Positions 3,940 through 53,979 of a stretch of DNA of 64,000 nucleotides are shown piece by piece. This DNA is from Spirochaetia bacterium (GTDB taxonomy: Bacteria; Spirochaetota; Spirochaetia; Treponematales; UBA12059), in the NCBI GenBank assembly GCA_034003955.1, contig JAVEXO010000012.1:337-64336 (forward strand), written 5' to 3'. Numbering within the stretch: the stretch's first letter is position 1; each line of letters opens with the position of its first letter. The notes below the pieces were generated by a model. That model saw only the letters and a list, made by a program, of their open reading frames with translations. It did not search any database and was not told where the DNA came from. The position numbers and the translations under genes were made by a program.

Positions 3940-4012
<73 letters not shown>

Positions 4013-4015
4013 CAT

Positions 4016-4059
4016 AGCAAAACAAAAGGACCGCCAGTAGGCGGTCCTTTTGTTTTGCT
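4016..4059. terminator. Perfect 20-bp hairpin (bidirectional intrinsic-terminator-like) after tRNA-Ala
   Basis: AGCAAAACAAAAGGACCGCC-AGTA-GGCGGTCCTTTTGTTTTGCT. A/T runs lie on both sides. Confidence 0.75.
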
Positions 4060-4454
4060 AACCAGAATGGAGTGAGGGGAATTGAACGGTACGAGCGCGC
4101 GCCGAGAGGCGCGAAAAGGCGCCAGGGATGGCGCCGAAAGCGAGTACCGCGGGCTGGAGGCTCGAGCCACGGGGGCGAGAGTCGGAAGCCAATTCCCTCG
4201 CCGGTATCCCCCGGCGAGTTTAGAACAAGCCTTATACCAGTTCGCCAGTAGGCGGTCCTTTTGTTTTGCTAACCAGAATGGAGTGAGGGGAATTGAACGG
4301 TACGAGCGCGCGCCGAGAGGCGCGAAAAGGCGCCAGGGATGGCGCCGAAAGCGAGTACCGCGGGCTGGAGGCTCGAGCCACGAGGGCGAGAGTCGGAAGC
4401 CAATTCCCTCGCCGGTATCCCCCGGCGAGCTTAGCACAGGCCTATAGTCGCCTA
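4033..4454. repeat. Tandem direct repeat, 2 x 211 bp, near-identical
   Basis: Copy 1 is 4033-4243 and copy 2 is 4244-4454, with only a few substitutions (for example ccacgGgggcg versus ccacgAgggcg). A partial third unit at about 4455-4480 has the hairpin loop inverted (GCCAGTAGGC versus GCCTACTGGC). Confidence 0.9.
4068..4218. ncRNA. Candidate structured RNA element, copy 1 (copy 2 at 4279-4429); class unknown
   Basis: Nested helices read off the sequence. P1: GAGGGGAATTG (4074-4084) with CAATTCCCTC (4190-4199). P2: GGTACGAGC (4088-4096) with GCGAGTACC (4140-4148), containing tandem G-A mismatches. Hairpin CGCGCC-GAGA-GGCGCG (4098-4113, GNRA loop). Hairpin GGCGCC-AGGGAT-GGCGCC (4118-4135). 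Hairpin CTCGCCGG-TATCCC-CCGGCGAG (4197-4218). Strand not determined. Confidence 0.35.
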
Positions 4455-21221: not shown

Positions 21222-22172
21222 CTATTGCTTGAGGTTGAGCCCCATGAACGGTTCTATGGTGTACATTCCGCCGGCCTGGATATCGTAGAAACCCTCTACC
21301 TGCAGACCACCTGAAGCGATCTTTATGAGGTGCCTACCAGGGGCTAGTTGTATCATCTGGCCCTTCACCTGGTTGCCATCTATCCAGATGCCAATCTGGT
21401 TCCAGTGGTTTCCACCCAGGCTCGTATTGATACTGGCCGCCGGCAACACGACAGAGACCGTGCCCATCGCTGGCTGGAGGGTCACGTTTATGCTCTTGGG
21501 ACCCGTGAAGGTGAAGCTCTCTACATAGGACACGAAGCCAGGCGCCTGTACCGTAACGGTGTATGTTCCGGGAGACAGCTGGCTGTTGAAGGGGGCGTTG
21601 CCTGCCATGGAGCCATTGAGCAGGACCTGTGCGCCCTTGACGTTTGTAGCGTTGACAGACAAGAGGAAGGTGGCGCTCTGGAGGCTTACGTCGATGCTCT
21701 TAGCGCCTGTAAGCGTGAAACTCTCGTTATAGCCCAGGAAGCCAGGAGCCTGCACCGTAATGGTGTATGTTCCTGGGCTTAGCTGGGTTGCGAAAGGCGT
21801 ATTGCCTATTGACTTGCCGTTTATAAGAACCTGTGCGCCCTTTACGTTGTTTGCGTTTACAGACAGCTGGAAGGTTGCGGGGCTCATGGTAATAGGCAGG
21901 TTCATGGTGCCAGATACCGAGACCGTGGTTGAGAAGTCAACATAGCCCTTGGCACGGGTCATGACCGTGTGGTTGCCAGCACTTACCGTGGCCACATTGC
22001 CTTTTATCCGGCCGCCGTCTATAAAAATTTCGGCGTTGGAGGGGTTTACGCTTATTGTAAGCTGAAAGGCGGTGGGGGCGGATGACTTCTTGCCTCCACT
22101 TGCCGATGATTGGGCGAATACCGAGCCGCCCATAAAAAGCGCGACGATCAGTATGGCAATAAATTTCTTCAT
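21222..22172 (-). CDS. Secreted PEGA-domain repeat protein
   Basis: Signal peptide MKKFIAILIVALFMGGSVFA. At least three PEGA-like modules (GAQVLINGKSIGNTPF...SPGTYTITVQAPGF). Confidence 0.8.
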   Translation of the reverse strand: MKKFIAILIVALFMGGSVFAQSSASGGKKSSAPTAFQLTISVNPSNAEIFIDGGRIKGNVATVSAGNHTVMTRAKGYVDFSTTVSVSGTMNLPITMSPATFQLSVNANNVKGAQVLINGKSIGNTPFATQLSPGTYTITVQAPGFLGYNESFTLTGAKSIDVSLQSATFLLSVNATNVKGAQVLLNGSMAGNAPFNSQLSPGTYTVTVQAPGFVSYVESFTFTGPKSINVTLQPAMGTVSVVLPAASINTSLGGNHWNQIGIWIDGNQVKGQMIQLAPGRHLIKIASGGLQVEGFYDIQAGGMYTIEPFMGLNLKQ

Positions 22173-22214
22173 GGTAGCTCCTTAAAAAGACTAGACGCAC
22201 TGTCTCCTACGAAT

Positions 22215-22239
22215 AAACAGGCGGCCAGGCCGCCTGTTT
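22215..22239 (-). terminator. Intrinsic terminator after the frameshifted lipoprotein gene
   Basis: AAACAGGCGGC-CAG-GCCGCCTGTTT, followed by TTTATT on the minus strand. Confidence 0.6.
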
Positions 22240-22262
22240 ATAACAATCGATTACAGAAAAGA

Positions 22263-23290
22263 TTACTTGGAGCCGGATATGACGAAGGTTGTATCACTGG
22301 GGATGCCACCCAAAGACCTTATGGCAGCACCATTGTTTTCAACCAGCCTATAGTCGGGCATGAATACCATGTAGTATACGCTCCCATCAGAGTTGTTGAA
22401 CAATTGGACTCGGAACAGGCTTATTGTCTTCTGGGGCATGTTGGATGGCAGGGTGAAGATACCCTTGATTGCACTGCCCTGGGTGATGACCACCCGTACA
22501 TTCTGGTTATCAAGGGTAGGGTTAAGGGGGGCATCCAGGTAGTATTCTCCTGAGCCCATCCAGTTATAGTTTCCTGTTGTTAAGACTGATCCAATGAATG
22601 GTGAAGTGGATTGAATGAAGGTAGGGGACCCACCTGAAGGATCGCAACTTTGGCTGCCAAGGAGGGTAATAGTCTCGGGGCCACCACCGTCCTCATCGTC
22701 TACATCGAGGTATGCAAAATCACCGGTGCCTTTTGGATTATCATAGAAGACATGAGCCCTGCCGGCAGGGAGGTCGGCATAGGCATTTGGAGCTGTCCAT
22801 GCTGTAGCAGGCATTGTTACATTGTCGAATTCGATCGGGTAGGTGAAGTGCGCGTCAAAATCTTGATTGTTCTCCGCCCAGGTAAGGAAGATGGAAACGG
22901 CATTGGGATCGCTACCCTTGCTTGTCGTAACACCGAACAGCTTGCCGAGGTCCTTGCTCCAGCCGGCCACGGTCGCCTCGAAGGGTATGAACACGTATCC
23001 GCTGCGTGCAGCGCTTACTGTATACGTGCCATAGGGTACCTGGTCGTCAAAGACGACGCTTCCACTAGAGCTGCTTGTTGTAGTAAAGGCTGTTGTCGAA
23101 CCGTCTTCCGTGATAATGGGTGTCAGGGTGTCAGGGTGACGGTGGCGTTGGGTATGCCCGTGCCCGTGCGTGCGTCAACGACGGTCATGGTTGGTGATAT
23201 CATCCATAAAAGTACGTCTACACACGAACTAAGGCCGAGTATCGCGAAGGCCATCAATGCTACGGTGTAAACTCTAGATGACTTGTTCAT
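22263..23290 (-). pseudogene. Lipoprotein with an N-terminal carboxypeptidase-regulatory-like (Ig-like) domain, interrupted by a +8 frameshift
   Basis: ATG 23290 (AAGGAGG RBS) gives MNKSSRVYTVALMAFAILGLSSC (lipobox) ...ATVTLTP, then TGA at 23125-23123. The 243-aa ORF 22263-22994 is in another frame. Deleting one copy of the 8-bp tandem unit at 23118-23133 joins both frames into one 339-aa ORF (checked by coordinate arithmetic). Confidence 0.75.
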
Positions 23291-23569
23291 GGGTCCTCCT
23301 TAAAACAGTTGCAGAGACAGGGCTGCAAGACGTGCTACCTGTCCTCATAATTCACGAAGACAAGTATACCGACAAATACTACAGAAAACACAATCACCAG
23401 GCGATTAGTTGCACTACTAAAAAATCCAGCGATTATGACGAGTCTAGGTGCAATCGAGCGACCCGTTATTAGAGTCTTTTCTGTGCTGCCGCCAGCGGAT
23501 TGCTGGCTGTATACCGCTCCTTTCAAGGCTATAACAACTTCGAGCGCAACTACGTTACTTTTACCTTAC

Positions 23570-23598: not shown

Positions 23599-23645
23599 GG
23601 ATAGTCATCAAAAACCATTCTGAAAAGGCTCATTCAATAGAATAA

Positions 23646-23750
23646 ACGAGGAGAATAAGAGAATACGAGGCAAGAAAGAGGGGATTTGAAGGATAATTCC
23701 GTAAAAAGCCTTCTCTTTTAAGTCTCTTTATCTCTTGTACTCTTTGTTAT
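23646..23750 (+). repeat. Purine-arm/pyrimidine-arm element in the kdd leader (family member 1)
   Basis: GA-rich arm ACGAGGAGAATAAGAGAATACGAGGCAAGAAAGAGGGG (23646-23685) and CT-rich arm CCTTCTCTTTTAAGTCTCTTTATCTCTTGTACTCTTTGTT (23709-23750). The arms are imperfect reverse complements and end 12 nt before the SD GAGGAGG. Confidence 0.7.
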
Positions 23751-23772
23751 TATTATTTCACGAGGAGGTACT

Positions 23773-24813
23773 ATGGCTAAAGGATGCAAGTACGGCACCC
23801 ACCGCGTCATCGAACCGGTGGGAGCCATGCCACAGACGGCGCAGCGCCTGGACAATGACATGTCTAAGGTCTACGACAACGAGATTCTGTTGGACGTGAT
23901 CGCGCTCAACGTCGATTCTGCCAGCTTCACCCAGATAGAGGAAGAAGCGGGGCACGATGTAGACAAGATTGGCAAGAAGATCATGGAGATCGTGGGTGCC
24001 AGGGGCAAGCAGCAGAATCCGGTAACCGGCTCTGGCGGCATGTTCATAGGCAAGGTGGTCAGGATAGGATCGGACCTCAAGGACAGAGACCTCAAGGTGG
24101 GCGACAAGATTGCCAGCCTCGTGTCCCTCTCTCTTACCCCCCTCAAGATCAACAAGATAGTAAAGGTGATGCCAGAGGTTGACCGCGTGCTCATAGACGG
24201 GCAGGCCATACTCTTTGAATCAGGCATCTATGCCAAGCTGCCAGACGACATGGACGAGGGTCTTGCACTCGCCGCCCTCGATGTGGCCGGAGCACCCGCG
24301 CAGACAGCCAAGCTTGTAAAGCCAGGCGACAGCGTGCTTATTCTGGGTGCCGGTGGTAAATCAGGGCTCATGTGCTGCTACGAGGCGATGAAGAGGGTAG
24401 GTCCCACAGGCCGCGTCATAGCCAACATCCGTAGCGAGAAGTACGTAAAGCCACTCACAGAGATGCATCTGTGCCATGAGATAGTGTTTGCCGACGCCGG
24501 CAAGCCCGTCGACATGCTCAATGCGGTGCTCAAGGCCAACAACGGTAAGGAAGTGGACATAGTCATAAACTGCGTCAACATCCAGGGTACCGAGATGTCG
24601 AGCATCCTGCCTGTGCGTGATAACGGCATAGTCTATTTCTTCAGCATGGCTACCAGTTTTACCCGCGCCGCATTAGGAGCCGAAGGTATTGGCAAGGACG
24701 TGCTCATGATTATAGGCAACGGCTATACCAAGGACCACGCCGAGATAACCCTGTGGGAGCTCAGAGAGAACGCTCAGCTTCGCAAGTACTTTGAAGAGCA
24801 GTACGTAAAGTAA
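23773..24813 (+). CDS. kdd: L-erythro-3,5-diaminohexanoate dehydrogenase
   Basis: 346 aa. N-terminus MAKGCKYGTHRVIEPVGAMPQTAQRLDN and a GAGGKSG nucleotide loop, as I recall for Kdd. Context with kce/kamA/kamDE. Confidence 0.85.
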   Translation: MAKGCKYGTHRVIEPVGAMPQTAQRLDNDMSKVYDNEILLDVIALNVDSASFTQIEEEAGHDVDKIGKKIMEIVGARGKQQNPVTGSGGMFIGKVVRIGSDLKDRDLKVGDKIASLVSLSLTPLKINKIVKVMPEVDRVLIDGQAILFESGIYAKLPDDMDEGLALAALDVAGAPAQTAKLVKPGDSVLILGAGGKSGLMCCYEAMKRVGPTGRVIANIRSEKYVKPLTEMHLCHEIVFADAGKPVDMLNAVLKANNGKEVDIVINCVNIQGTEMSSILPVRDNGIVYFFSMATSFTRAALGAEGIGKDVLMIIGNGYTKDHAEITLWELRENAQLRKYFEEQYVK

Positions 24814-24851: not shown

Positions 24852-25248
24852 GGGAGGACGGCAAGCCGGGTTGCGCAAGCGCGCGATTGGCCGGCGGGGG
24901 CAGTCCGTCTCCCGGTAATTATGCGGCGTTCTGCCGGTAAGGATCAGGCCTACGCATACAAAACGTGAGAAGACGGTTAGCCGTCTCTCGCCCCGGGGGC
25001 TCCCCGTCCCCGGCGCGGCGAGCGTAAACGGCGTAGGATATGCCTGCGACGAGTTGACGCTTGCCGGAACGTATCGGCAGCCACCCCATAAGGGGTTGGA
25101 GGATGGACGAGACCATCCATACCGATCTTATGTTTTCCATTGTTTCTGTTTGTTTTGATTGTTGACCGAGGAACGAAGACTGGGGCGACAGGGTTTTAAA
25201 GGTTACGTTGAGTGGCACTCTGCGTGTCCCTTAAAACCCTGTCGCCCC
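24852..25248 (+). other. Non-coding, highly structured GC-rich spacer between kdd and kce (candidate cis-regulatory or processed RNA)
   Basis: No ORF of 60 aa or more on the operon strand. Helices: GGGAGGACGG/CCGTCTCCC (24852-24913); CAGGCCTACGC/GCGTAGG..GCCTG (24945-25046) enclosing GAGAAGACGG-TTAG-CCGTCTCTC and CTCGCC...GGCGAG; CCACCCC-ATAA-GGGGTTGG (25081-25099); GGATGG-ACGAGA-CCATCC (25101-25118); perfect 18-bp stem 25182-25199/25231-25248. Confidence 0.4.
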
Positions 25249-25287
25249 GCCATCGATCGTTACCTACCTACTTTAAGGAGGGCATAC

Positions 25288-26115
25288 ATGGCTCTTGACG
25301 GCAAGATAGTGATAACATGCGCGTGTACCGGCGCAGAGACGACGGTAGCCCAGAACCCGGCGCTTCCAATAACCCCTGATCAGGTGGCCAGGACGGCGGA
25401 AGAGTGCAGGGCTGCGGGTGCCGCCATCCTGCATCTGCATGTGAGGGACGATAAGGGCATGGCTACCCAGAGCGTAGCCAGGTTCAAGGAGGCCATAGAG
25501 GCCATCCGCAAGAAGACAGATATCGTCATTGAGATAACAACAGGTGGAGCCGTCGGCGACACGGCAGAGGAACGCCTGCGTCCAGTCAAGGAACTGCAGC
25601 CAGAGATGGCATCGCTCGACTGTGGCACCGTTAACTTCGGTGACGAGTACATAGTCAACGATCTGCCAACGATGCGGGCATTTGCAGCAGAGTTCAAGCG
25701 GCTCAAGGTTAGGGCCACGCTTGAATGTTTTGACCTGGGACATGTCTACGCAAGCCATTACCTCCTAAAGGAAGGCCTCATAGAGGCTCCATTACACTAT
25801 GGCTTCGTACTCAATGTGCCTGGTGCCGTACCGTACAGCGTCGAGAACCTGTCGGCCTTCATCAAGGCCATACCTGCTGGAGCCGATTTTACCGTGATGG
25901 GCATAGGCCGCTCGTCGCTTCCTGCCCAGTTTGGGGCCATAGCCAACTCTGGGTGGATTCGCGTTGGCTTTGAGGACAACGTATTCTTTAGCAAGGGAGT
26001 GCTTGCCAAGAGCAACGCCGAGTTAGTAGAGCGGGCCGTGCGCATATCCCACGAAGCCGGCTTAAAACCAGCCACGCCCGATGATGTCCGAAGCTACCTG
26101 AGACTAAGAGGCTGA
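25288..26115 (+). CDS. kce: 3-keto-5-aminohexanoate cleavage enzyme (BKACE/DUF849 family)
   Basis: Start at MALDGKIVITCACTGAETT (AAGGAGG RBS). TIM-barrel BKACE hallmarks (ILHLHVRD, EITTGG). Operon context. Confidence 0.85.
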   Translation: MALDGKIVITCACTGAETTVAQNPALPITPDQVARTAEECRAAGAAILHLHVRDDKGMATQSVARFKEAIEAIRKKTDIVIEITTGGAVGDTAEERLRPVKELQPEMASLDCGTVNFGDEYIVNDLPTMRAFAAEFKRLKVRATLECFDLGHVYASHYLLKEGLIEAPLHYGFVLNVPGAVPYSVENLSAFIKAIPAGADFTVMGIGRSSLPAQFGAIANSGWIRVGFEDNVFFSKGVLAKSNAELVERAVRISHEAGLKPATPDDVRSYLRLRG

Positions 26116-26372
26116 TAGAGGAAGACTTAAGGAAGAGGATAAGAGAAGAAGAGTAAAGAAAGAGGGAAGAGGGAGATGAGGAGCAGTGATTATGATCTGC
26201 TCTGTCCGGGCTCTTGTCCTCTTGTTCTCTTTGTCGATTTATTAGATGAGGTTTGGTTTAGGAAGACTGATGTAGATGTAGAAATTAGAGTTAAGAGTTC
26301 ATCAAGAGAAGGCCTGCTGAGAGATTCCTCTCGTTCCTTTCTCTTGTCCTCTTATTCTCTTTGTTAATCTTT
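26114..26372 (+). repeat. Intercistronic purine-arm/pyrimidine-arm element, copy A (two modules)
   Basis: GA arm 26114-26185 (GATAGAGGAAGACTTAAGGAAGAGGATAAGAG...), CT arm 26197-26236 (CTGCTCTGTCCGGGCTCTTGTCCTCTTGTTCTCTTTGTCG), second GA part 26236-26328, second CT arm 26329-26372. Long identical blocks are shared with copy B. Confidence 0.85.
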
Positions 26373-26387
26373 TATAGGAGGCTTACT

Positions 26388-27683
26388 ATGCATACTTATC
26401 CGTCTTACGATTACAAGCGCATTCCGCTGTATAAAGATGTGACGCCCGAGCAGTGGAACGACTGGCACTGGCAGATGAAGAACAACATCAAGGACGTAGA
26501 GACGCTGGCAAAGGTCGTCCCTCTGACACAGAAGGACAAGGACGGCGTGATAGAGGTGCTCAAGGTGTTCCGCATGGCCATAACGCCATACTACGCCTCG
26601 CTGATAGACCCGGAGAATCCAGGCTGCCCGGTCAGGCTTCAGGCTGTCCCGCGCCTGCCTGAGACGCATTTCGACGAGAGCGACCAGGACGATCCGCTTC
26701 ATGAAGACTCAGACAGCCCGGTTCCAGGCCTTACACACCGCTACCCAGACAGGGTGCTGCTCTTGGTCACCCATATATGCTCCATGAACTGCCGTCACTG
26801 TACACGCAGGCGCATCGTTGGTGAAGAAGACGCCAACATGAACGAAGAGTATATTGACGCCGCCATAGAGTATATAAAGAAGACACCAATAGTCAGGGAC
26901 GTGCTCATATCCGGTGGAGACCCCCTTGTACTGTCAGATGAGAAGCTAGAGAGCATCATAAAGAAGATACGTGCCATACCACACGTGGAGATAATCCGCA
27001 TAGGAACGCGCACGCCAGTGGTCATGCCCCAGCGTATAACAGACAAGCTTGTTACCATGCTCAAGCAGTACCACCCCATCTATGTCAACACGCACTTCAA
27101 CCATCCCAAGGAGATTACAGCCGAGTCTCGCGAGGCTTGCCGCAAGCTAGCCGACGCTGGCATACCACTTGGAAACCAGAGCGTGCTCCTGCGCGATGTA
27201 AACGATTGCCCGGTTCTTATGAAGAAGCTCGTGCAGAAGCTACTGACCATACGCGTAAAGCCGTACTACATCTACCAGTGTGACCTGTCACTTGGCATCA
27301 GCCACTTCCGCACTACCGTCTCCAAGGGCATAGAGATAATAGAGAACCTGCGTGGCCACACCTCTGGCATGGCAGTACCCACATTCGTCATAGACGCGCC
27401 GGGAGGCGGCGGCAAGACGCCAGTGATGCCAGACTACATGATATCAAGTAACGACAAGCGTGTGATACTGCGCAACTATGAGGGCGTTATCACCACATAC
27501 GATGAACCTACCGGTTATCACGAGGACTGTGGCAAATGCCGTATATGCTTCGACGAACCTCAGCTCAACGCCACCTGTGGCGTAGCAAGGCTTCTATCTG
27601 GTGACGAGAAGACCCTGGAACCAAAAAACCTGGTCAGAGCCGCCCGTGGCACCAACGCCTTCTCCCCAAGAAAGAAGAAGTAA
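26388..27683 (+). CDS. kamA: L-lysine 2,3-aminomutase (radical SAM, PLP)
   Basis: CxxxCxxC cluster motif CSMNCRHCTRR and conserved KamA blocks (ITPYYASLIDPENP, LISGGDPL). Start at MHTYPSYDY after AGGAGG. Confidence 0.95.
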   Translation: MHTYPSYDYKRIPLYKDVTPEQWNDWHWQMKNNIKDVETLAKVVPLTQKDKDGVIEVLKVFRMAITPYYASLIDPENPGCPVRLQAVPRLPETHFDESDQDDPLHEDSDSPVPGLTHRYPDRVLLLVTHICSMNCRHCTRRRIVGEEDANMNEEYIDAAIEYIKKTPIVRDVLISGGDPLVLSDEKLESIIKKIRAIPHVEIIRIGTRTPVVMPQRITDKLVTMLKQYHPIYVNTHFNHPKEITAESREACRKLADAGIPLGNQSVLLRDVNDCPVLMKKLVQKLLTIRVKPYYIYQCDLSLGISHFRTTVSKGIEIIENLRGHTSGMAVPTFVIDAPGGGGKTPVMPDYMISSNDKRVILRNYEGVITTYDEPTGYHEDCGKCRICFDEPQLNATCGVARLLSGDEKTLEPKNLVRAARGTNAFSPRKKK

Positions 27684-27699
27684 TACTAGTAAAGATAAC

Positions 27700-28296
27700 G
27701 AACAGGAGAGGGCTGATAGAGGAAGACTAAGGAAGAGGATTAGGGACAGTGTTTTGTATTGCTCTGTCCGGGCTCTTGTCCTCTTGTTCTCTTTGTTGAT
27801 TTATTGGAAGAAGCTTAGTTTAGGAAGATTAACGAAGAGGGTGGAAAGAGTGGAGAGGGATAGTTTGAGCGATCGAATAATTGGATGCGCTATCGCCGTA
27901 CACCGAGAACTTGGACCCGGGCTCTTAGAGTCTATATACGAGGAAGCTTTATGTCTGGAATTATCGGACAATGGGTTATCCTATAATAGGCAGCTAGAAC
28001 TTCCTGTTTCCTATAAAGGGATATGCCTTAATGGTTCTTTCAGGATCGATATGCTGGTAGAAGGATCTATCGTACTCGAGCTCAAATGCGTCGAGGCTCT
28101 CTTGCCGGTACACAAGGCTCAGTTGCGTTCTTGTTTACTCTTGGGTGGCTGGAATACTGGTCTGCTTCTTAATTTCAAAACCGCCATCCTCAAGAACGGT
28201 ATATACAGGATATCTATATGATGCACATGGCTCATCTTAAGTTATTTTTAGTGATTCCCTCTTTCTCGGCTCTTATTCTCTTATTCTCTTTGTTCA
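27700..28296 (+). repeat. Intercistronic purine-arm/pyrimidine-arm element, copy B, split by an inserted ORF
   Basis: 27716-27745 matches 26113-26143. 27760-27825 matches 26197-26262 (TGCTCTGTCCGGGCTCTTGTCCTCTTGTTCTCTTTGT-GATTTATT...TTTAGGAAGA). The terminal CT arm 28255-28296 matches 26323-26368. The GxxExxY ORF lies between them. Confidence 0.85.
27841..28221 (+). CDS. GxxExxY-family protein (PD-(D/E)XK nuclease-like fold)
   Basis: Diagnostic motif GPGLLESIYEEAL and family-typical length of about 125 aa (SDRIIGCAIAVHRELGPGLLESIYEEALCLEL...). Start is ambiguous: GTG 27841, GTG 27850 or TTG 27865. The upstream part of track ORF 27601 is the C-terminus of kamA plus repeat read-through. Confidence 0.75.
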   Translation: MERVERDSLSDRIIGCAIAVHRELGPGLLESIYEEALCLELSDNGLSYNRQLELPVSYKGICLNGSFRIDMLVEGSIVLELKCVEALLPVHKAQLRSCLLLGGWNTGLLLNFKTAILKNGIYRISI

Positions 28297-28317
28297 TCCC
28301 TGCTAAAAGGCTTTGCT

Positions 28318-29217
28318 ATGTTGGATAGTGCTGCTGATTTCCTGGGCAGGGTTACGTTTGTGACAGGCCCGGAGAAGCACTGCGGAAAGACAACATTCAT
28401 GAATCGAGCCGCACAGCTTGCCAGACGTGGAGCCAGGATGGCGGGTCTTGGTGGCCCGGCCCTCCTCACGGTTGGGTACGATGGAGAGGCTCGTGACTTC
28501 TTGTCCGGGGCAAGAAAGCCTGCCGTTCCCGTGTCGCCAGGCGATATAGTCGTCACGACGGAACGTTTCGCCCGGTCCTGTTTGCCAGAGATACTCGATG
28601 TACTGCCTGGCTCGGGTGCCATGGGGCGGCTCTGCATAGCCCGCGCGCACAGGTCTGCCACCGTGGCTCTGGTGGGGCCGGAAGGGAATTCACTGGTGGC
28701 GTGGGCCATCAAGAGGATAGTCAAGGAAGGTTTAAGCGGCACCGTGCTTGTAGACGGGGCCATAAACAGGATAACGCAGGCCGCGTCTCTTCATGGGTCA
28801 CGCTTCGTCTATGCACTGAGGGTAGACGGCGCTAACCTGGAACGTTCATTGGCGCGGGTCAGGCGCATGGCCACACTTGTCGGTCTGCCGCTTGCCTCTG
28901 ACATTGGGGTGGAAGGCAAGCCCGAACCGTATAGACTGCAGGATGCCCTGACCGCCGAAAGCGTGGCACGTCTACCCAAAAATGCCCGCGTCGTTGTGGT
29001 AGATGACTTTACAAAAATATTCCTCAGTGACTCGGAGCTGGCATCCTTTATGAGCGAGAAAGAACTGTATGTCGAGCGGAGCATCGATTTTGGCGGATTC
29101 GTCGTCATGTGTCGTGGTGTAAAGGATGAAGAATTCGAAAAGCGGCTAGATGATGTCGGTATCGCGGCAATGGTGGCCTACAATCCGTACGAGGCAAGAG
29201 CGGAGGGTGTAGCGTGA
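28318..29217 (+). CDS. P-loop-like protein of the lysine-fermentation cluster (possible aminomutase reactivase component)
   Basis: 299 aa. N-terminal Walker-A-like FVTGPEKHCGKTTF. GTGA overlap with the next gene. I recognise no other family. Confidence 0.55.
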   Translation: MLDSAADFLGRVTFVTGPEKHCGKTTFMNRAAQLARRGARMAGLGGPALLTVGYDGEARDFLSGARKPAVPVSPGDIVVTTERFARSCLPEILDVLPGSGAMGRLCIARAHRSATVALVGPEGNSLVAWAIKRIVKEGLSGTVLVDGAINRITQAASLHGSRFVYALRVDGANLERSLARVRRMATLVGLPLASDIGVEGKPEPYRLQDALTAESVARLPKNARVVVVDDFTKIFLSDSELASFMSEKELYVERSIDFGGFVVMCRGVKDEEFEKRLDDVGIAAMVAYNPYEARAEGVA

Positions 29218-50723: not shown

Positions 50724-51920
50724 ATGAACCCACTCGATATTTACGTAAACAAAGCAGTACCATTCAAATTCAAGGGTGTCGACCTGTCATTCGACCTGTC
50801 GCATGCCCTGTTCAGCTCCTTTGATATAGACGCAGGATCCCGCCTCCTCTTGAAGGCGATAGCCCAGAATGTTGAACAAGCCAGCGTAGGCTCAATAGTC
50901 GACATAGGTTCTGGCGTGGGAGTGCTCGGCATAGCCTGTGCAAAGGCCTATCCGGACTCGAGCCTGCTTATGCGAGACCGCGACGCCCTGGCATCTGCCT
51001 TTAGCGAGCGGAACGCCAGACGCAACAGGATTGCCTCGGTATCAATCGATACGCGCCTGTTCCTGGAAGGCATAGAGGCGGAACGCTATGACCTTGTGCT
51101 GTGCAACGTGCCGGCCAAGGCCGGTCCTCCCGTGCTTGACCGCTTCCTTAAAGATATCCCTGGCATCCTCACCGAGCGCGGCACAGGCGCCATCGTCGTC
51201 GTTGAGACAATAGCCGAAGCCGCCTTAGCATCGCTGCGCGCATCAGGCGCTGAGATCTACCGCACGGAGCGCGGGCCGGGTCATAGTGCCTTCCTCTTCA
51301 GGCGTGGCAGCGCCGCGGCCGTTGAGCCAGGAGCGTTCTGGGGCGTCATGGAACGTTCTGAGCAGAGACTGCGCGCCGGCAAGATATTGTATCGACTCAA
51401 AGGATATTGGGGACTCCAGGAATTCGATACACCCTCGTTCTCAAGCGAATTGTCGATGAACATGGCAGAGAACGCCATGGCCGGTCTCCACACCAGGAGG
51501 GTCGCCCTTATCAACCCCGGGGTCGGGCGTGTAGCCTGTTACATTGGAGCACGCGCCAGAGGCGCGACGATAGACCTGTGCGGACGCGACTCGCTATCGC
51601 TCGCCGTAAGCGCCAGGAACCTGGCGCTTAACGCCAAGGCTGATACACCGGCGGGCGAGTCATACTCTTTCGCATCCAAGCTTCCTGACAGTGCCTACGA
51701 CCTCCTGGTCGAGACAGTCGATCCTATTCCCCGCGTCGATACACTAGACGATTCATGGGCCTCGGCTCTCAGGATCTTGAAGCGGGGGGGCTCCTACATA
51801 GCCACCATGCCATCTGCCGTCATGGACCGCTTCGAGAAACGAAAGCCAAAGGGAATGGTCAAGATATCGGGAAAAAAGAAGAAGGGCTTTGCCTGTGCCT
51901 CCTGGCGCCTTGAAGCTTGA
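50724..51920 (+). CDS. Class I SAM-dependent methyltransferase (RsmC/RlmG-like small-domain family)
   Basis: SAM motif I VDIGSGVGVLGI and motif IV-like LCNVPAK. Apparent two-lobe architecture. Confidence 0.65.
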   Translation: MNPLDIYVNKAVPFKFKGVDLSFDLSHALFSSFDIDAGSRLLLKAIAQNVEQASVGSIVDIGSGVGVLGIACAKAYPDSSLLMRDRDALASAFSERNARRNRIASVSIDTRLFLEGIEAERYDLVLCNVPAKAGPPVLDRFLKDIPGILTERGTGAIVVVETIAEAALASLRASGAEIYRTERGPGHSAFLFRRGSAAAVEPGAFWGVMERSEQRLRAGKILYRLKGYWGLQEFDTPSFSSELSMNMAENAMAGLHTRRVALINPGVGRVACYIGARARGATIDLCGRDSLSLAVSARNLALNAKADTPAGESYSFASKLPDSAYDLLVETVDPIPRVDTLDDSWASALRILKRGGSYIATMPSAVMDRFEKRKPKGMVKISGKKKKGFACASWRLEA

Positions 51921-51939
51921 GGGCCATTCTAGTCGGCTA

Positions 51940-51987
51940 GCCTGATTGCAGGCTCGCCTGATTACAGGCTCGCCTGATTACAGGCGG
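51940..51987. repeat. Tandem 16-bp palindromic array (3 units)
   Basis: GCCTGATTGCAGGCTC GCCTGATTACAGGCTC GCCTGATTACAGGCGG. It consists of alternating inverted repeats CAGGC-TC-GCCTG and GCCTG-ATTA-CAGGC. Confidence 0.9.
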
Positions 51988-52092
51988 CCATTTTAACTTG
52001 TGCAGTGACCGTTTTAGGTATAGAACTGTTGCCTGTGGAGTAGCCATTATCAAAAGATGCCGCTCCGAGCACATACAAGGAGAGCTCACGAT

Positions 52093-53904
52093 ATGAACAT
52101 CGATAGCATACGGCACCCCAGGCTTAGAGAATGGATAGACGAGCAGGTTGCAATGTGCATGCCAGACGACGTCTACGTCTGTGATGGTGGACAGGAAGAA
52201 GCCGACAGGCTGGCCGAGCGTATGCTACGCTCAGGGAGCTTCAAGCAACTCGACAAGAAACCAAACTCTTTTTATGTACGCAGCGACCCCGGTGACGTGG
52301 CCAGGGTGGAGAACAATACATTCATCTGCTCACGTTTCCGAGAGGAGGCCGGCCCCACCAATAACTGGCGTGACCCCGAGGAGATGAAGGGTGAACTCAG
52401 GCAGCGCTTCTTTGGATGCATGCGCGGCCGCACCATGTATGTCATACCATTCTCAATGGGGCCCATAGGTGGCCCGCTCTCGCAGATTGGCATAGAGCTT
52501 ACAGACAGCCTCTATGTCGTGCTCAACATGCGTATCATGACGAGGATGGGTACGGCAGTCTTAGCGGAACTTGACAGGGACAAGCCATTCGTAAAATGCC
52601 TTCATTCTGTGGGCTATCCCTTGACCCTAGGCCGCCGCGAACTGGCATGGCCCTGCGATTCAAACAACAAGTATATTGTCCATTTTCCCGAAGAACGATC
52701 CATCTGGTCCTATGGTTCGGGCTACGGTGGCAATGCCCTTCTAGGCAAGAAGTGCTATGCCCTGAGGATAGCCAGCGTCATGGCCCGCGATCAGGGCTGG
52801 CTGGCTGAACACATGCTCATCCTGGGGTTAACAAATCCAGAAGGACAGAAGAAATACATCGTGGCGGCATTCCCCTCTGCCTGTGGCAAGACTAACCTGG
52901 CCATGCTTGTGCCCAGCATCCCCGGCTGGAAGGTTGAGACGGTTGGAGACGACATAGCATGGCTTCGATGGGGCAAGGATGGTAGGCTCTACGCCATCAA
53001 TCCAGAGGCCGGCTTCTTCGGTGTTGCTCCTGGCACCAGCATGAAGTCTAACCCCAATGCCATGTTGTCTGCTCAGAAGAACAGCATTTTTACAAACGTA
53101 GCATTAACCCCCGACGGCGATGTGTGGTGGGAGGGCATTGGTACGCCACCACCGGAGGGACTCATAGACTGGCTCGGCGAAAGCTATGATCCGTCAAACG
53201 ACAAACCGGCCGCTCATCCTAACAGCCGTTTTACGGCTCCGGCCAGTCAGTGCCCTGTGATAGACCCAGAATGGGAGAACCCCGAGGGTGTGCCTATAAG
53301 TGCCATCCTGTTTGGTGGCCGCCGCGTCGGCACGGTTCCCTTGGTGCACGAGGCATTGGATTGGGAGCATGGCGTGTTCATGGGTTCTATAGTTTCTAGC
53401 GAGACGACCGCCGCCGCCGCAGGAGCCGTCGGCAAGTTGCGGCGCGACCCCTTTGCCATGCTGCCATTCTGCGGCTACAACATGGGAGATTACTTCCACC
53501 ATTGGCTTAGGATGGGAGAACGCTCGGGCGTGGTCCACCCACGGGTGTACTACGTCAACTGGTTCCGGAAGGGAGAGGACGGAGCCTTCCTCTGGCCAGG
53601 CTTTGGAGACAACGCGAGGGTCCTCAAGTGGATATTCGAGCGATGCGACGGCGTAGGCAAGGCCGTCGAAACGGCCATAGGCTATGTTCCTGCGCCAGGG
53701 GCCCTGGACATTGACGGCCTCGATATGACGCCAGAAGCCATGCAGGCTCTTCTGGCGGTACGTGAAGAGGAATGGCTGGCCGATATACCAGGGATCAGAG
53801 CCTTCTATGGCAGCTTTCATGACGGGTTTCCTGAACCATTACTGGCTCGTCTTGCCTGGCTTGAGCGCCGGCTTCAAGGTGGCGCCGCCGGCATCAAGGG
53901 CTAA
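52093..53904 (+). CDS. pckG: Phosphoenolpyruvate carboxykinase (GTP)
   Basis: GTP-PEPCK motifs ([12 protein letters not shown] kinase-1a; [14 protein letters not shown]). Start at [11 protein letters not shown] after AAGGAG. Confidence 0.95.
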
Positions 53905-53907
53905 GGT

Positions 53908-53979
53908 TGCCTGATCGAGCCCTGCAGGCTTGCAGGCTTGCAGGCTCGCCTGGTTACAGGCTCGCCTGGTTACAGGCGG
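53908..53979. repeat. Tandem 8-bp/16-bp palindromic array related to 51940-51987
   Basis: ...CTGCAGGCTT GCAGGCTT GCAGGCTC GCCTGGTTACAGGCTC GCCTGGTTACAGGCGG. The unit differs from the upstream array only by A to G. It overlaps the last codons of zur. Confidence 0.9.

What the first reader, a model, noticed from the sequence alone, without database searches (positions are those of the whole stretch)
23118..23139. 8-bp tandem duplication frameshifts a surface lipoprotein gene (pseudogene or slipped-strand switch)
Seen in sequence:
- The plus strand reads GGGTGTCA GGGTGTCA GGGTGA (23118-23139). In coding orientation this is CACCCTGA CACCCTGA CACCC.
- The upstream frame starts at ATG 23290 with an AAGGAGG RBS and a lipobox signal peptide (AILGLSSC). 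It terminates in the repeat at TGA 23125-23123.
- The 243-aa ORF 22263-22994 continues in another frame.
- Coordinate arithmetic shows that removing exactly one 8-bp unit fuses them into a single 339-aa ORF. The junction region then reads as a carboxypeptidase-regulatory-like beta-sandwich (VVDARTGTGIPNATVTLTPIITEDGSTTAFTTTSSSSGSVVFDDQVPYGTYTVSAARSGYVF).

Inference: three explanations are possible:
- a recent inactivating duplication;
- a reversible slipped-strand ON/OFF switch of a surface protein, since the neighbouring gene is a PEGA-repeat secreted protein;
- a sequencing or assembly error.
Basis: partly seen in the sequence, partly recalled or inferred. Interest (0 to 1): 0.55.

Follow-up and report, generated by a model that had tools for sequence, protein, structure and literature searches.

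The report
8-bp duplication breaks a lipoprotein gene
In this uncultured spirochaete assembly, an exact 8-base tandem duplication between two short CACCC repeats frameshifts a lipoprotein gene that is intact in all close and distant relatives, so it is an ordinary recent knock-out mutation (or possibly an artefact) and not a built-in genetic switch.

Summary
On the coding (minus) strand, 23138-23118 reads CACCCTGA CACCCTGA CACCC. The reading frame that starts at ATG 23290 (with ribosome-binding site and lipobox) stops at TGA 23125-23123. Deleting one unit gives a 339-aa ORF.

- **One gene in relatives:** about 20 homologues (335-364 aa, Spirochaetota MAGs) align across the whole repaired ORF.
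- **One unit in close strains:** three conspecific sequences (96.4-98.4% nt identity) all carry a single unit, CACCC-TGA-CACCC. Against the two clean assemblies, the 8 bp is the only indel in 1.7-3.7 kb.
- **Mechanism:** the anatomy is a textbook microhomology-mediated (replication-slippage) tandem duplication.
- **Not a designed tract:** the peptide VTLTPI is conserved across the family, but the CACCC microhomology exists only in this species, through synonymous codon choice. About 60 equally good microhomology pairs occur in the window.
- **Recent event:** the window copy carries no other lesion.

The most likely explanation is a real, recent null allele that could revert by slippage. A dedicated slipped-strand ON/OFF switch is not supported. 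An assembly or sequencing artefact cannot be excluded without the reads.

The gene is an uncharacterised lipoprotein with a transthyretin-like domain and a strain-hypervariable beta-sandwich, paired with a PEGA protein gene. Interest is low.

The parts
23118..23138 (-). Perfect tandem repeat CACCCTGA x2.6 on the coding strand. One 8-bp unit is extra relative to conspecific strains. Which unit is 'new' cannot be determined.
   Evidence: Single-unit state in L001, L002 and L035. It is the only indel against L001 and L002.
23123..23290 (-). 5' fragment of the disrupted gene: 55 codons with signal peptide and lipobox (LSS-C23), then the premature TGA at 23125-23123 created by the frameshift.
   Evidence: C23 is invariant in 20 homologues. 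Deposited as MDX9898159.1.
23295..23301 (-). Shine-Dalgarno-like AAGGAGG, 4 nt upstream of ATG 23290.
   Evidence: Read directly from the sequence.
22263..23122 (-). 3' part of the gene, now in a shifted frame. It is open from the repeat to TAA 22263-22265. It was annotated as a 243-aa ORF from GTG 22994 (MDX9898158.1), which lacks a signal peptide.
   Evidence: Aligns to residues 56-339 of full-length homologues.
22213..22241 (-). 13-bp GC-rich hairpin whose 3' arm runs into U-rich sequence, 22 nt after the stop codon. It is a probable intrinsic terminator, so the frameshift need not be polar on the PEGA gene.
   Evidence: RNA fold -26.8 kcal/mol, z = -4.0. The simple terminator scan did not list it.
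21222..22172 (-). Downstream partner gene: a 316-aa secreted protein with three PEGA domains. The lipoprotein + PEGA pair is conserved in a 50%-identity orthologue that sits in a different neighbourhood.
   Evidence: Pfam PEGA E = 1.8e-33. Synteny in L037-L039 and L001/L035.

Best explanation
A single lipoprotein gene (339 aa when intact) has suffered a recent microhomology-mediated tandem duplication.

**How the duplication arose (anatomy shown, slippage inferred).** In the ancestral sequence, the codons for Thr-Leu-Thr-Pro (ACC CTG ACA CCC) happen to create two 5-bp direct repeats, CACCC, whose starts are 8 bp apart. Replication slippage between them copied the 8-bp unit CACCCTGA, leaving three CACCC arms.

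**What it does to the gene (shown).** The +8 insertion shifts the frame and places TGA in frame at codon 56. Translation from the normal start therefore yields only the signal peptide plus about 32 residues. The remaining 284 codons are out of frame and lack any export signal, so the allele is null for the lipoprotein.

**Consequences (inferred).**
- A terminator-like hairpin after the gene suggests that the downstream PEGA partner gene is not affected by polarity.
- The duplicated allele contains two overlapping 13-bp direct repeats, so it can in principle revert by the reverse slippage. This reversibility is a generic property of such duplications, not an evolved switch.
- The gene's C-terminal domain is a hot spot of strain-to-strain variation. 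Loss of this protein may therefore be tolerated or even favoured, for example to escape something that recognises it.
For: - **One gene in relatives:** 22 homologues were found, and those of 335-364 aa cover about 100% of the repaired ORF. In the 20-sequence alignment, L53 is invariant, and V51 and T54 are at least 90% conserved across the junction. Further intact orthologues were found in genomes and metagenomes.
- **Ancestral state:** L001 (97.2% nt identity over 3.7 kb), L002 (98.4% over 1.7 kb) and L035 (96.4% over 12.5 kb) all read GTCACCCTGACACCCATT, i.e. one unit. The 8 bp is the only indel against L001 and L002. The intact 339-aa proteins P0029 and P0030 sit in the same 90% cluster.
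- **Recent event:** the window copy has no other stop or frameshift. The first 275 nt are identical to the strains, and pN/pS is 0.14-0.40.
- **Clean assembly:** long ORFs tile the window. The neighbouring genes are intact here but split in the noisy L035 assembly.
- **Mechanism class:** microhomology-mediated tandem duplications with 5-8-bp arms cause frameshifts and revert to exact wild type. They are also detected in E. coli, about 1/20 as often as in S. pombe (PMC8639346).
- **Gene identity:** lipobox. The AF2 model has pLDDT 79, with a transthyretin-like N-terminal domain and weak TerD-like matches for the C-terminal domain.
Against: - No read-level data were available, so it is not shown that the two-unit allele exists in real molecules, nor at what frequency.
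- The two-unit allele is seen in only one assembly. The 55-aa product occurs on a single contig in the 15-billion-protein collection.
- Attempts to find independent contigs carrying it failed.
- Loss of function is inferred from sequence only.
Confidence: 0.72

Rival explanations
1. Assembly, PCR or sequencing artefact: the organism really has one unit, and the extra 8 bp arose during library preparation or assembly.
For: - The two-unit allele appears in only one assembly.
- All other conspecific sequences have one unit.
- The window copy has no secondary decay, which is what an artefact would also look like.
Against: - The window is otherwise free of frameshift noise.
- The change is an exact tandem duplication bounded by microhomology. 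That is the signature of polymerase slippage in vivo, not of homopolymer-type indel error.
- Inference: in a de Bruijn assembly, the one-unit allele has only a 5-nt internal repeat. This is far shorter than any k, so the graph cannot create the duplication without reads that contain it.
Confidence: 0.13
2. An evolved slipped-strand contingency locus: the 8-bp tract changes unit number at high frequency and switches the lipoprotein ON (1 or 4 units) or OFF (2 or 3 units) in the population.
For: - The unit length is not a multiple of 3, so copy number gates the frame.
- Copy number differs between conspecific assemblies, 1 versus 2.
- The gene is a lipoprotein whose C-terminal domain is hypervariable among strains, the kind of gene that is often phase-variable.
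- Short tandem duplications do revert readily (PMC8639346).
Against: - There are only 1.6 units in the common allele and 2.6 here. From general knowledge, contingency loci carry many units or long homopolymers.
- Three of four assemblies share the one-unit state, and no 3- or 4-unit alleles were seen.
- The repeat-prone DNA is absent from all other orthologues even though the peptide is conserved.
- Microhomology pairs of this quality are as common as chance predicts: 60 in the window against 51 +/- 7 expected.
Confidence: 0.07
3. The frameshift is bypassed during expression by programmed -1 ribosomal frameshifting or transcriptional slippage, so a full-length protein with about 3 extra residues is still made.
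For: A -1 shift before the TGA would restore the downstream frame (frame arithmetic). The stop follows a CCC codon.
Against: - There is no X XXY YYZ slippery heptamer in GTC ACC CTG ACA CCC TGA.
- A +1 shift at CCC-UGA gives the wrong frame.
- Close strains and all orthologues encode the protein in a single frame with no such site.
- There is no homopolymer that could support transcriptional slippage.
Confidence: 0.02
4. Two genuinely separate genes: a 55-aa lipopeptide and a 243-aa cytoplasmic protein.
For: The depositors annotated two ORFs (MDX9898159.1 and MDX9898158.1).
Against: - No relative has this split at this position. All have one ORF.
- The 243-aa ORF starts in the middle of the transthyretin-like domain, with no Shine-Dalgarno sequence.
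- The other split copy, in L035, breaks elsewhere and lies in an indel-noisy assembly.
Confidence: 0.01

Closest known systems
Microhomology-mediated tandem duplications (MTDs) / replication-slippage duplications (Dan et al., PNAS 2021, PMC8639346; also the classical lacI CTGG hot spot, Farabaugh et al. 1978, cited from memory)
   Same: A single-copy segment flanked by short GC-rich direct repeats (here 5-bp CACCC arms) is duplicated exactly in tandem, leaving three arms. It frameshifts and inactivates the gene. The product carries longer direct repeats and can collapse back to exact wild type.
   Different: This segment is very short: 8 bp, compared with 55-92 bp in the yeast alleles that were studied genetically. 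It is seen once, in a metagenome assembly. Neither its subclonal frequency nor its reversion has been measured.
Simple-sequence-repeat contingency loci (e.g. Neisseria opa CTCTT repeats, Haemophilus tetranucleotide repeats; general knowledge)
   Same: A repeat inside the 5' coding region of an envelope protein gene, just after the signal peptide, whose unit length is not divisible by 3. Copy number therefore sets ON or OFF.
   Different: Those loci carry many units, the tract is conserved across strains and species, and many length alleles coexist. Here there are 1.6 or 2.6 units, the tract is a codon-choice accident of a single species, and only two alleles are known.
Ordinary frameshift pseudogenes in MAGs and isolate genomes
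   Same: A single lesion splits an otherwise conserved gene into two annotated 'hypothetical proteins'.
   Different: Nothing substantive. This one is unusually well resolved, because near-identical intact alleles are available for comparison.

Membership tests
Microhomology-mediated tandem duplication (slippage duplication) | The ancestral allele has a single-copy segment bounded by two short identical direct repeats. | tested here: met
   L001, L002 and L035 read CACCC-TGA-CACCC, i.e. 5-bp arms whose starts are 8 bp apart.
Microhomology-mediated tandem duplication (slippage duplication) | The derived allele is an exact head-to-tail duplication of arm plus spacer, with no other change. | tested here: met
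   The window reads CACCCTGA CACCCTGA CACCC. The single 8-bp insertion is the only indel against L001 and L002, and the flanks are identical.
Microhomology-mediated tandem duplication (slippage duplication) | Reverts to exact wild type at a frequency well above that of point mutation, and is present subclonally. | not testable with these tools
   Needs reads or culture. Only literature values for other organisms are available.
Slipped-strand phase-variable contingency locus | A tract of many tandem units (or a long homopolymer) that confers a high switching rate. | tested here: not met
   2.6 units here and 1.6 in relatives.
Slipped-strand phase-variable contingency locus | The repeat tract is maintained in orthologues or strains, with multiple length alleles. 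| tested here: not met
   The DNA microhomology is absent in nine other orthologue sequences despite the conserved peptide. Only 1-unit (three assemblies) and 2-unit (one assembly) alleles are known.
Slipped-strand phase-variable contingency locus | The unit length is not a multiple of three and lies in the coding region, so copy number gates translation. | tested here: met
   The unit is 8 bp. One unit is in frame; two or three units are out of frame.
Bacterial lipoprotein (Lgt/LspA substrate) | N-terminal signal peptide ending in a lipobox with an invariant Cys. | tested here: met
   MNKSSRVYTVALMAFAILGLSS-C23. C23 is invariant in 20 homologues, and the AF2 model has an N-terminal helix at residues 4-30. 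Lipidation and surface exposure themselves are not testable here.
CarboxypepD_reg / transthyretin-like beta-sandwich (PF13620) | Match to the family profile above the curated cut-off, or to its fold. | tested here: inconclusive
   Pfam E = 1.4e-7, 32.2 bits against a cut-off of 32.3, for residues 36-96. Foldseek matches the transthyretin-like domains of carboxypeptidase N and D at rmsd 3.4-4.2 A over 94-96 columns. This is fold-level support, a hair under the sequence threshold.
TerD-like / DUF2135-like beta-sandwich (C-terminal domain; a lead from memory) | Profile match or a convincing structural match. | tested here: inconclusive
   No Pfam family matches residues 99-339 even at E <= 10, and NCBIfam gives none. 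Foldseek hits 2qng and 2qz7 (TerD homologues) have target-normalised TM 0.54 and rmsd 5.8-8.1 A. This is a resemblance only.
Programmed -1 ribosomal frameshift site | A slippery heptamer X XXY YYZ before the stop, conserved in relatives. | tested here: not met
   The sequence is ACC CTG ACA CCC TGA. Relatives have a plain single frame.

The most novel reading that the evidence does not exclude
The two-unit allele is a real polymorphism that segregates and reverts in a natural population of an uncultured spirochaete. Microhomology-mediated duplication and collapse would then act as a low-grade ON/OFF toggle for a strain-hypervariable envelope lipoprotein, for example under phage or predator pressure. 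That would be an environmental example of MTD-type reversible gene inactivation in bacteria.
Probability: 0.1. Interest if true: 0.45.

Novelty: new member of a known kind. Interest (0 to 1): 0.15.

Why it matters
Its main use is as an annotation correction. The two deposited 'hypothetical proteins' (MDX9898159.1, 55 aa, and MDX9898158.1, 243 aa) are halves of one frameshifted gene. That gene belongs to an uncharacterised, Spirochaetota-centred lipoprotein family that travels with a PEGA-domain protein gene.

It is also a very clean natural example of a microhomology-mediated tandem duplication, with the ancestral allele preserved in sister strains. If read data showed both alleles coexisting, it would illustrate reversible gene inactivation in an environmental bacterium. 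As things stand, it is an ordinary mutation.

Tried and rejected
- **Metagenome pattern scan:** a variable-gap DNA pattern that would report the unit number in any JGI metagenome contig gave 0 hits. The pattern itself works on the window, so the species is simply absent from that collection.
- **Protein-guided scans:** scans of GTDB genomes and JGI metagenomes found only relatives at 60% identity or less, all intact, and no further conspecific copies.
- **Exact-product look-ups:** look-ups of the 55-aa and 243-aa fragments and of the neighbouring KDD protein found nothing, so the window's own sample could not be traced.
- **L036 (Logan SRR27460517):** found through the identical PEGA protein, it looked promising because the contig ends inside the gene. 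However, it starts with an Illumina adapter remnant and joins the window only at 23075, 43 nt past the repeat, so it says nothing about the site.
- **Second split copy in MASR2M48 (98 + 173 aa):** I considered it as evidence of recurrent inactivation and rejected that. The contig has 76 gap openings in 12.5 kb and many split genes, so it is indel noise.
- **DUF2135/YfaP-like C-terminal domain:** this idea came from memory. Pfam does not support it for this protein or for a Pseudomonas relative.
- **Frameshift bypass and two-gene readings:** both rejected (see the rival explanations).
- **Terminator scan:** the simple scan did not list the hairpin after the gene. It was found by folding.

Full report
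**Observation**

On the coding (minus) strand, the window reads ...GCC ACC GTC ACC CTG ACA CCC TGA CAC CCA TTA.... This contains CACCCTGA CACCCTGA CACCC. On the plus strand that is GGGTGTCA x2.6 at 23118-23138 (TRF: period 8, 2.6 copies, 100% matches).

The ORF list shows two pieces:
- A 55-codon ORF at 23290-23123 (MNKSSRVYTVALMAFAILGLSSCVDV...TVTLTP*), preceded by AAGGAGG at 23301-23295.
- A 243-codon ORF at 22994-22263, in another frame.

A script confirmed three points. The downstream frame is open from the repeat onward. Deleting one 8-bp unit gives a 1020-nt, 339-aa ORF. A third unit would also be out of frame.

A perfect period-8 run of this length never appeared in 300 Markov simulations of the window.

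**It is one gene**

A search with the repaired protein found 22 homologues beyond the window's own fragment. Those of 335-364 aa cover about 100% of the query at 36-66% identity, and nearly all come from Spirochaetota MAGs.

In the 20-sequence alignment, the junction peptide V-T-L-T-P-I is conserved: L53 is invariant, and V51 and T54 are at least 90% conserved. The lipobox Cys23 is invariant. Scans of GTDB genomes and JGI metagenomes returned further intact single-ORF orthologues and no conserved two-gene arrangement.

**Ancestral state in conspecific strains**

The window's fragments are MDX9898159.1 (55 aa) and MDX9898158.1 (243 aa), from 'Spirochaetia bacterium RBT62', on a 65,909-bp contig that is also held in IMG. 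Their 90% cluster also holds:
- Two intact 339-aa proteins from Logan assemblies (P0029, P0030).
- Two fragments from GCA_054684755.1 (MASR2M48).

I compared their DNA with the window:

| Locus | Source | Identity to window | Span |
|---|---|---|---|
| L001 | Logan SRR15311596 | 97.2% | 3.7 kb |
| L002 | Logan SRR25572339 | 98.4% | 1.7 kb |
| L035 | MASR2M48 | 96.4% | 12.5 kb |

All three read GTCACCCTGACACCCATT, which is one unit: two 5-bp CACCC arms separated by TGA. A global alignment shows that the 8-bp unit is the only indel between the window and L001 or L002.

L035 splits the gene elsewhere. However, it has 76 gap openings in 12.5 kb and many split neighbouring genes, so its breaks are assembly noise, not a second inactivation.

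**Mechanism**

The change from CACCC-TGA-CACCC to CACCC-TGA-CACCC-TGA-CACCC is the exact signature of a microhomology-mediated (replication-slippage) tandem duplication. Dan et al. (PMC8639346) describe such events. They have 5-8-bp arms, cause frameshift inactivation, revert to exact wild type at about 1e-4 (against about 8e-7 forward) in fission yeast, and also occur in E. coli, though at a lower rate.

The anatomy is shown here. Slippage as the cause, and reversibility, are inferred.

**Is it a designed switch?**

I extracted the DNA encoding the conserved peptide from ten distinct orthologue sequences. Only this species has the CACCC...CACCC pair, because it uses ACC CTG ACA CCC. The others use synonymous codons that remove the microhomology.

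Microhomology pairs of at least 5 bp at 8-bp spacing are as common as chance predicts: 60 in the window against 51 +/- 7 expected.

Three facts count against a contingency locus: the common allele has 1.6 units, only two length alleles are known, and the tract is not conserved. The 8-bp unit does gate the frame, so incidental toggling is possible.

**How recent, and how real?**

The repaired window gene has no other lesion. Its first 275 nt are identical to L001 and L002, and pN/pS against them is 0.14-0.40. The event is therefore recent, or it is not biological at all.

The window is otherwise cleanly tiled by long ORFs, and it shows no other indels against the two short-read assemblies.

I infer that a de Bruijn assembler cannot invent this duplication from one-unit reads, because the one-unit allele repeats only 5 nt. 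I could not reach any reads or any independent contig carrying two units. An artefact therefore keeps about 13% probability.

**What the gene is**

- **Family assignment:** Pfam gives a borderline CarboxypepD_reg hit at residues 36-96 (32.2 bits against a cut-off of 32.3). Nothing matches residues 99-339, and NCBIfam gives nothing.
- **Structure:** an AlphaFold model built from the alignment (pLDDT 79, pTM 0.77) shows an N-terminal helix, a transthyretin-like sandwich and a larger beta-sandwich. Foldseek matches the first domain to the transthyretin-like domains of carboxypeptidase N and D (rmsd 3.4-4.2 A). It matches the second domain only weakly to TerD homologues.
- **Gene context:** the gene is followed, after a strong terminator-like hairpin, by a three-PEGA-domain protein gene. 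This pair recurs in a 50%-identity orthologue that sits in a different neighbourhood, which suggests a two-gene module.
- **Strain variation:** among conspecific strains, nucleotide differences pile up in the C-terminal domain in patches, at 19-24 per 200 nt against 0-9 per 200 nt in the flanking sequence. This is typical of an exposed, diversifying or recombining envelope protein.

**Verdict**

The finding is correct and well resolved, but ordinary. It is a recent null allele of an uncharacterised lipoprotein gene, made by an 8-bp microhomology-mediated tandem duplication. It could revert in principle, it is not a dedicated phase-variation device, and a residual chance of artefact remains that only the reads can settle.

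Noticed in passing
window 23640-23765, 26105-26245, 26250-26375, 27700-27810, 28255-28300 (+ strand): The leaders and intergenic regions of the lysine-fermentation cluster carry a repeated element. The cluster comprises kdd 23773-24813, BKACE/kce 25159-26115, kamA 26361-27683 and the next gene at 28318. The element is a purine-rich arm (AAGAGGAAGA...) followed by the pyrimidine-rich arm CTCTTGTCCTCTTGTTCTCTTTGT, with 4 copies at up to 3 mismatches against 0 expected, and then U-rich sequence. These regions fold as long hairpins (kdd leader -42 kcal/mol, z = -4.9). Two copies are paralogous over about 110 nt. There is no Rfam hit at gathering threshold. It could be an attenuator or terminator system, or a repeated intergenic element.
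   Followed up: partly
window 51935-51985 and 53923-53977: Tandem arrays of a 16-bp unit lie immediately after the stop codons of two consecutive genes (50724-51920 and 52057-53904). They are GGCTCGCCTGATTACA x3.2, and CAGGCTCGCCTGGTTA x2.3 preceded by TGCAGGCT x3. The unit contains the small palindrome CAGGC-TC-GCCTG, so these could be tandem hairpins, a REP-like element or a terminator array.
   Followed up: no
window 4032-4443: A 211-bp unit is repeated twice in tandem at 98% identity, starting 19 nt after tRNA-Ala(GGC) at 3940-4013. Its content was not identified.
   Followed up: no
window 22263-23015 (gene nt 276-965), compared with L001 and L002: The C-terminal domain of the lipoprotein is a local diversity hot spot among conspecific strains. 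Differences cluster in patches (e.g. gene nt 514-523, 647-676, 703-719, 886-905) while the flanking genes are nearly identical. All 19 differences from L002 fall within gene nt 276-468, which suggests a recombination patch.
   Followed up: partly
L035 (GCA_054684755.1, BAAFUR010000035.1), whole locus: This public MAG contig has 76 gap openings in 12.5 kb relative to the window. Many of its genes are split (KDD 116+181 aa, PEGA 148+202 aa, SBP_bac_5 310+220 aa, and the lipoprotein 173+98 aa). It is an indel-noisy assembly, so its 'pseudogenes' should not be trusted.
   Followed up: yes
L036 1-24 (Logan SRR27460517 contig): The contig begins with an Illumina TruSeq adapter remnant (CCCTACACGACGCTCTTCCGATCT) fused to genomic sequence. 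The gene caller read this through as part of a 276-aa partial ORF.
   Followed up: yes
L037-L039 and window 21222-23290: The lipoprotein gene and the PEGA-repeat protein gene stay adjacent and co-oriented in a 50%-identity orthologue whose other neighbours are entirely different (MaoC/4HBT upstream, Fpg/MFS downstream). This points to a conserved two-gene module of unknown function.
   Followed up: partly
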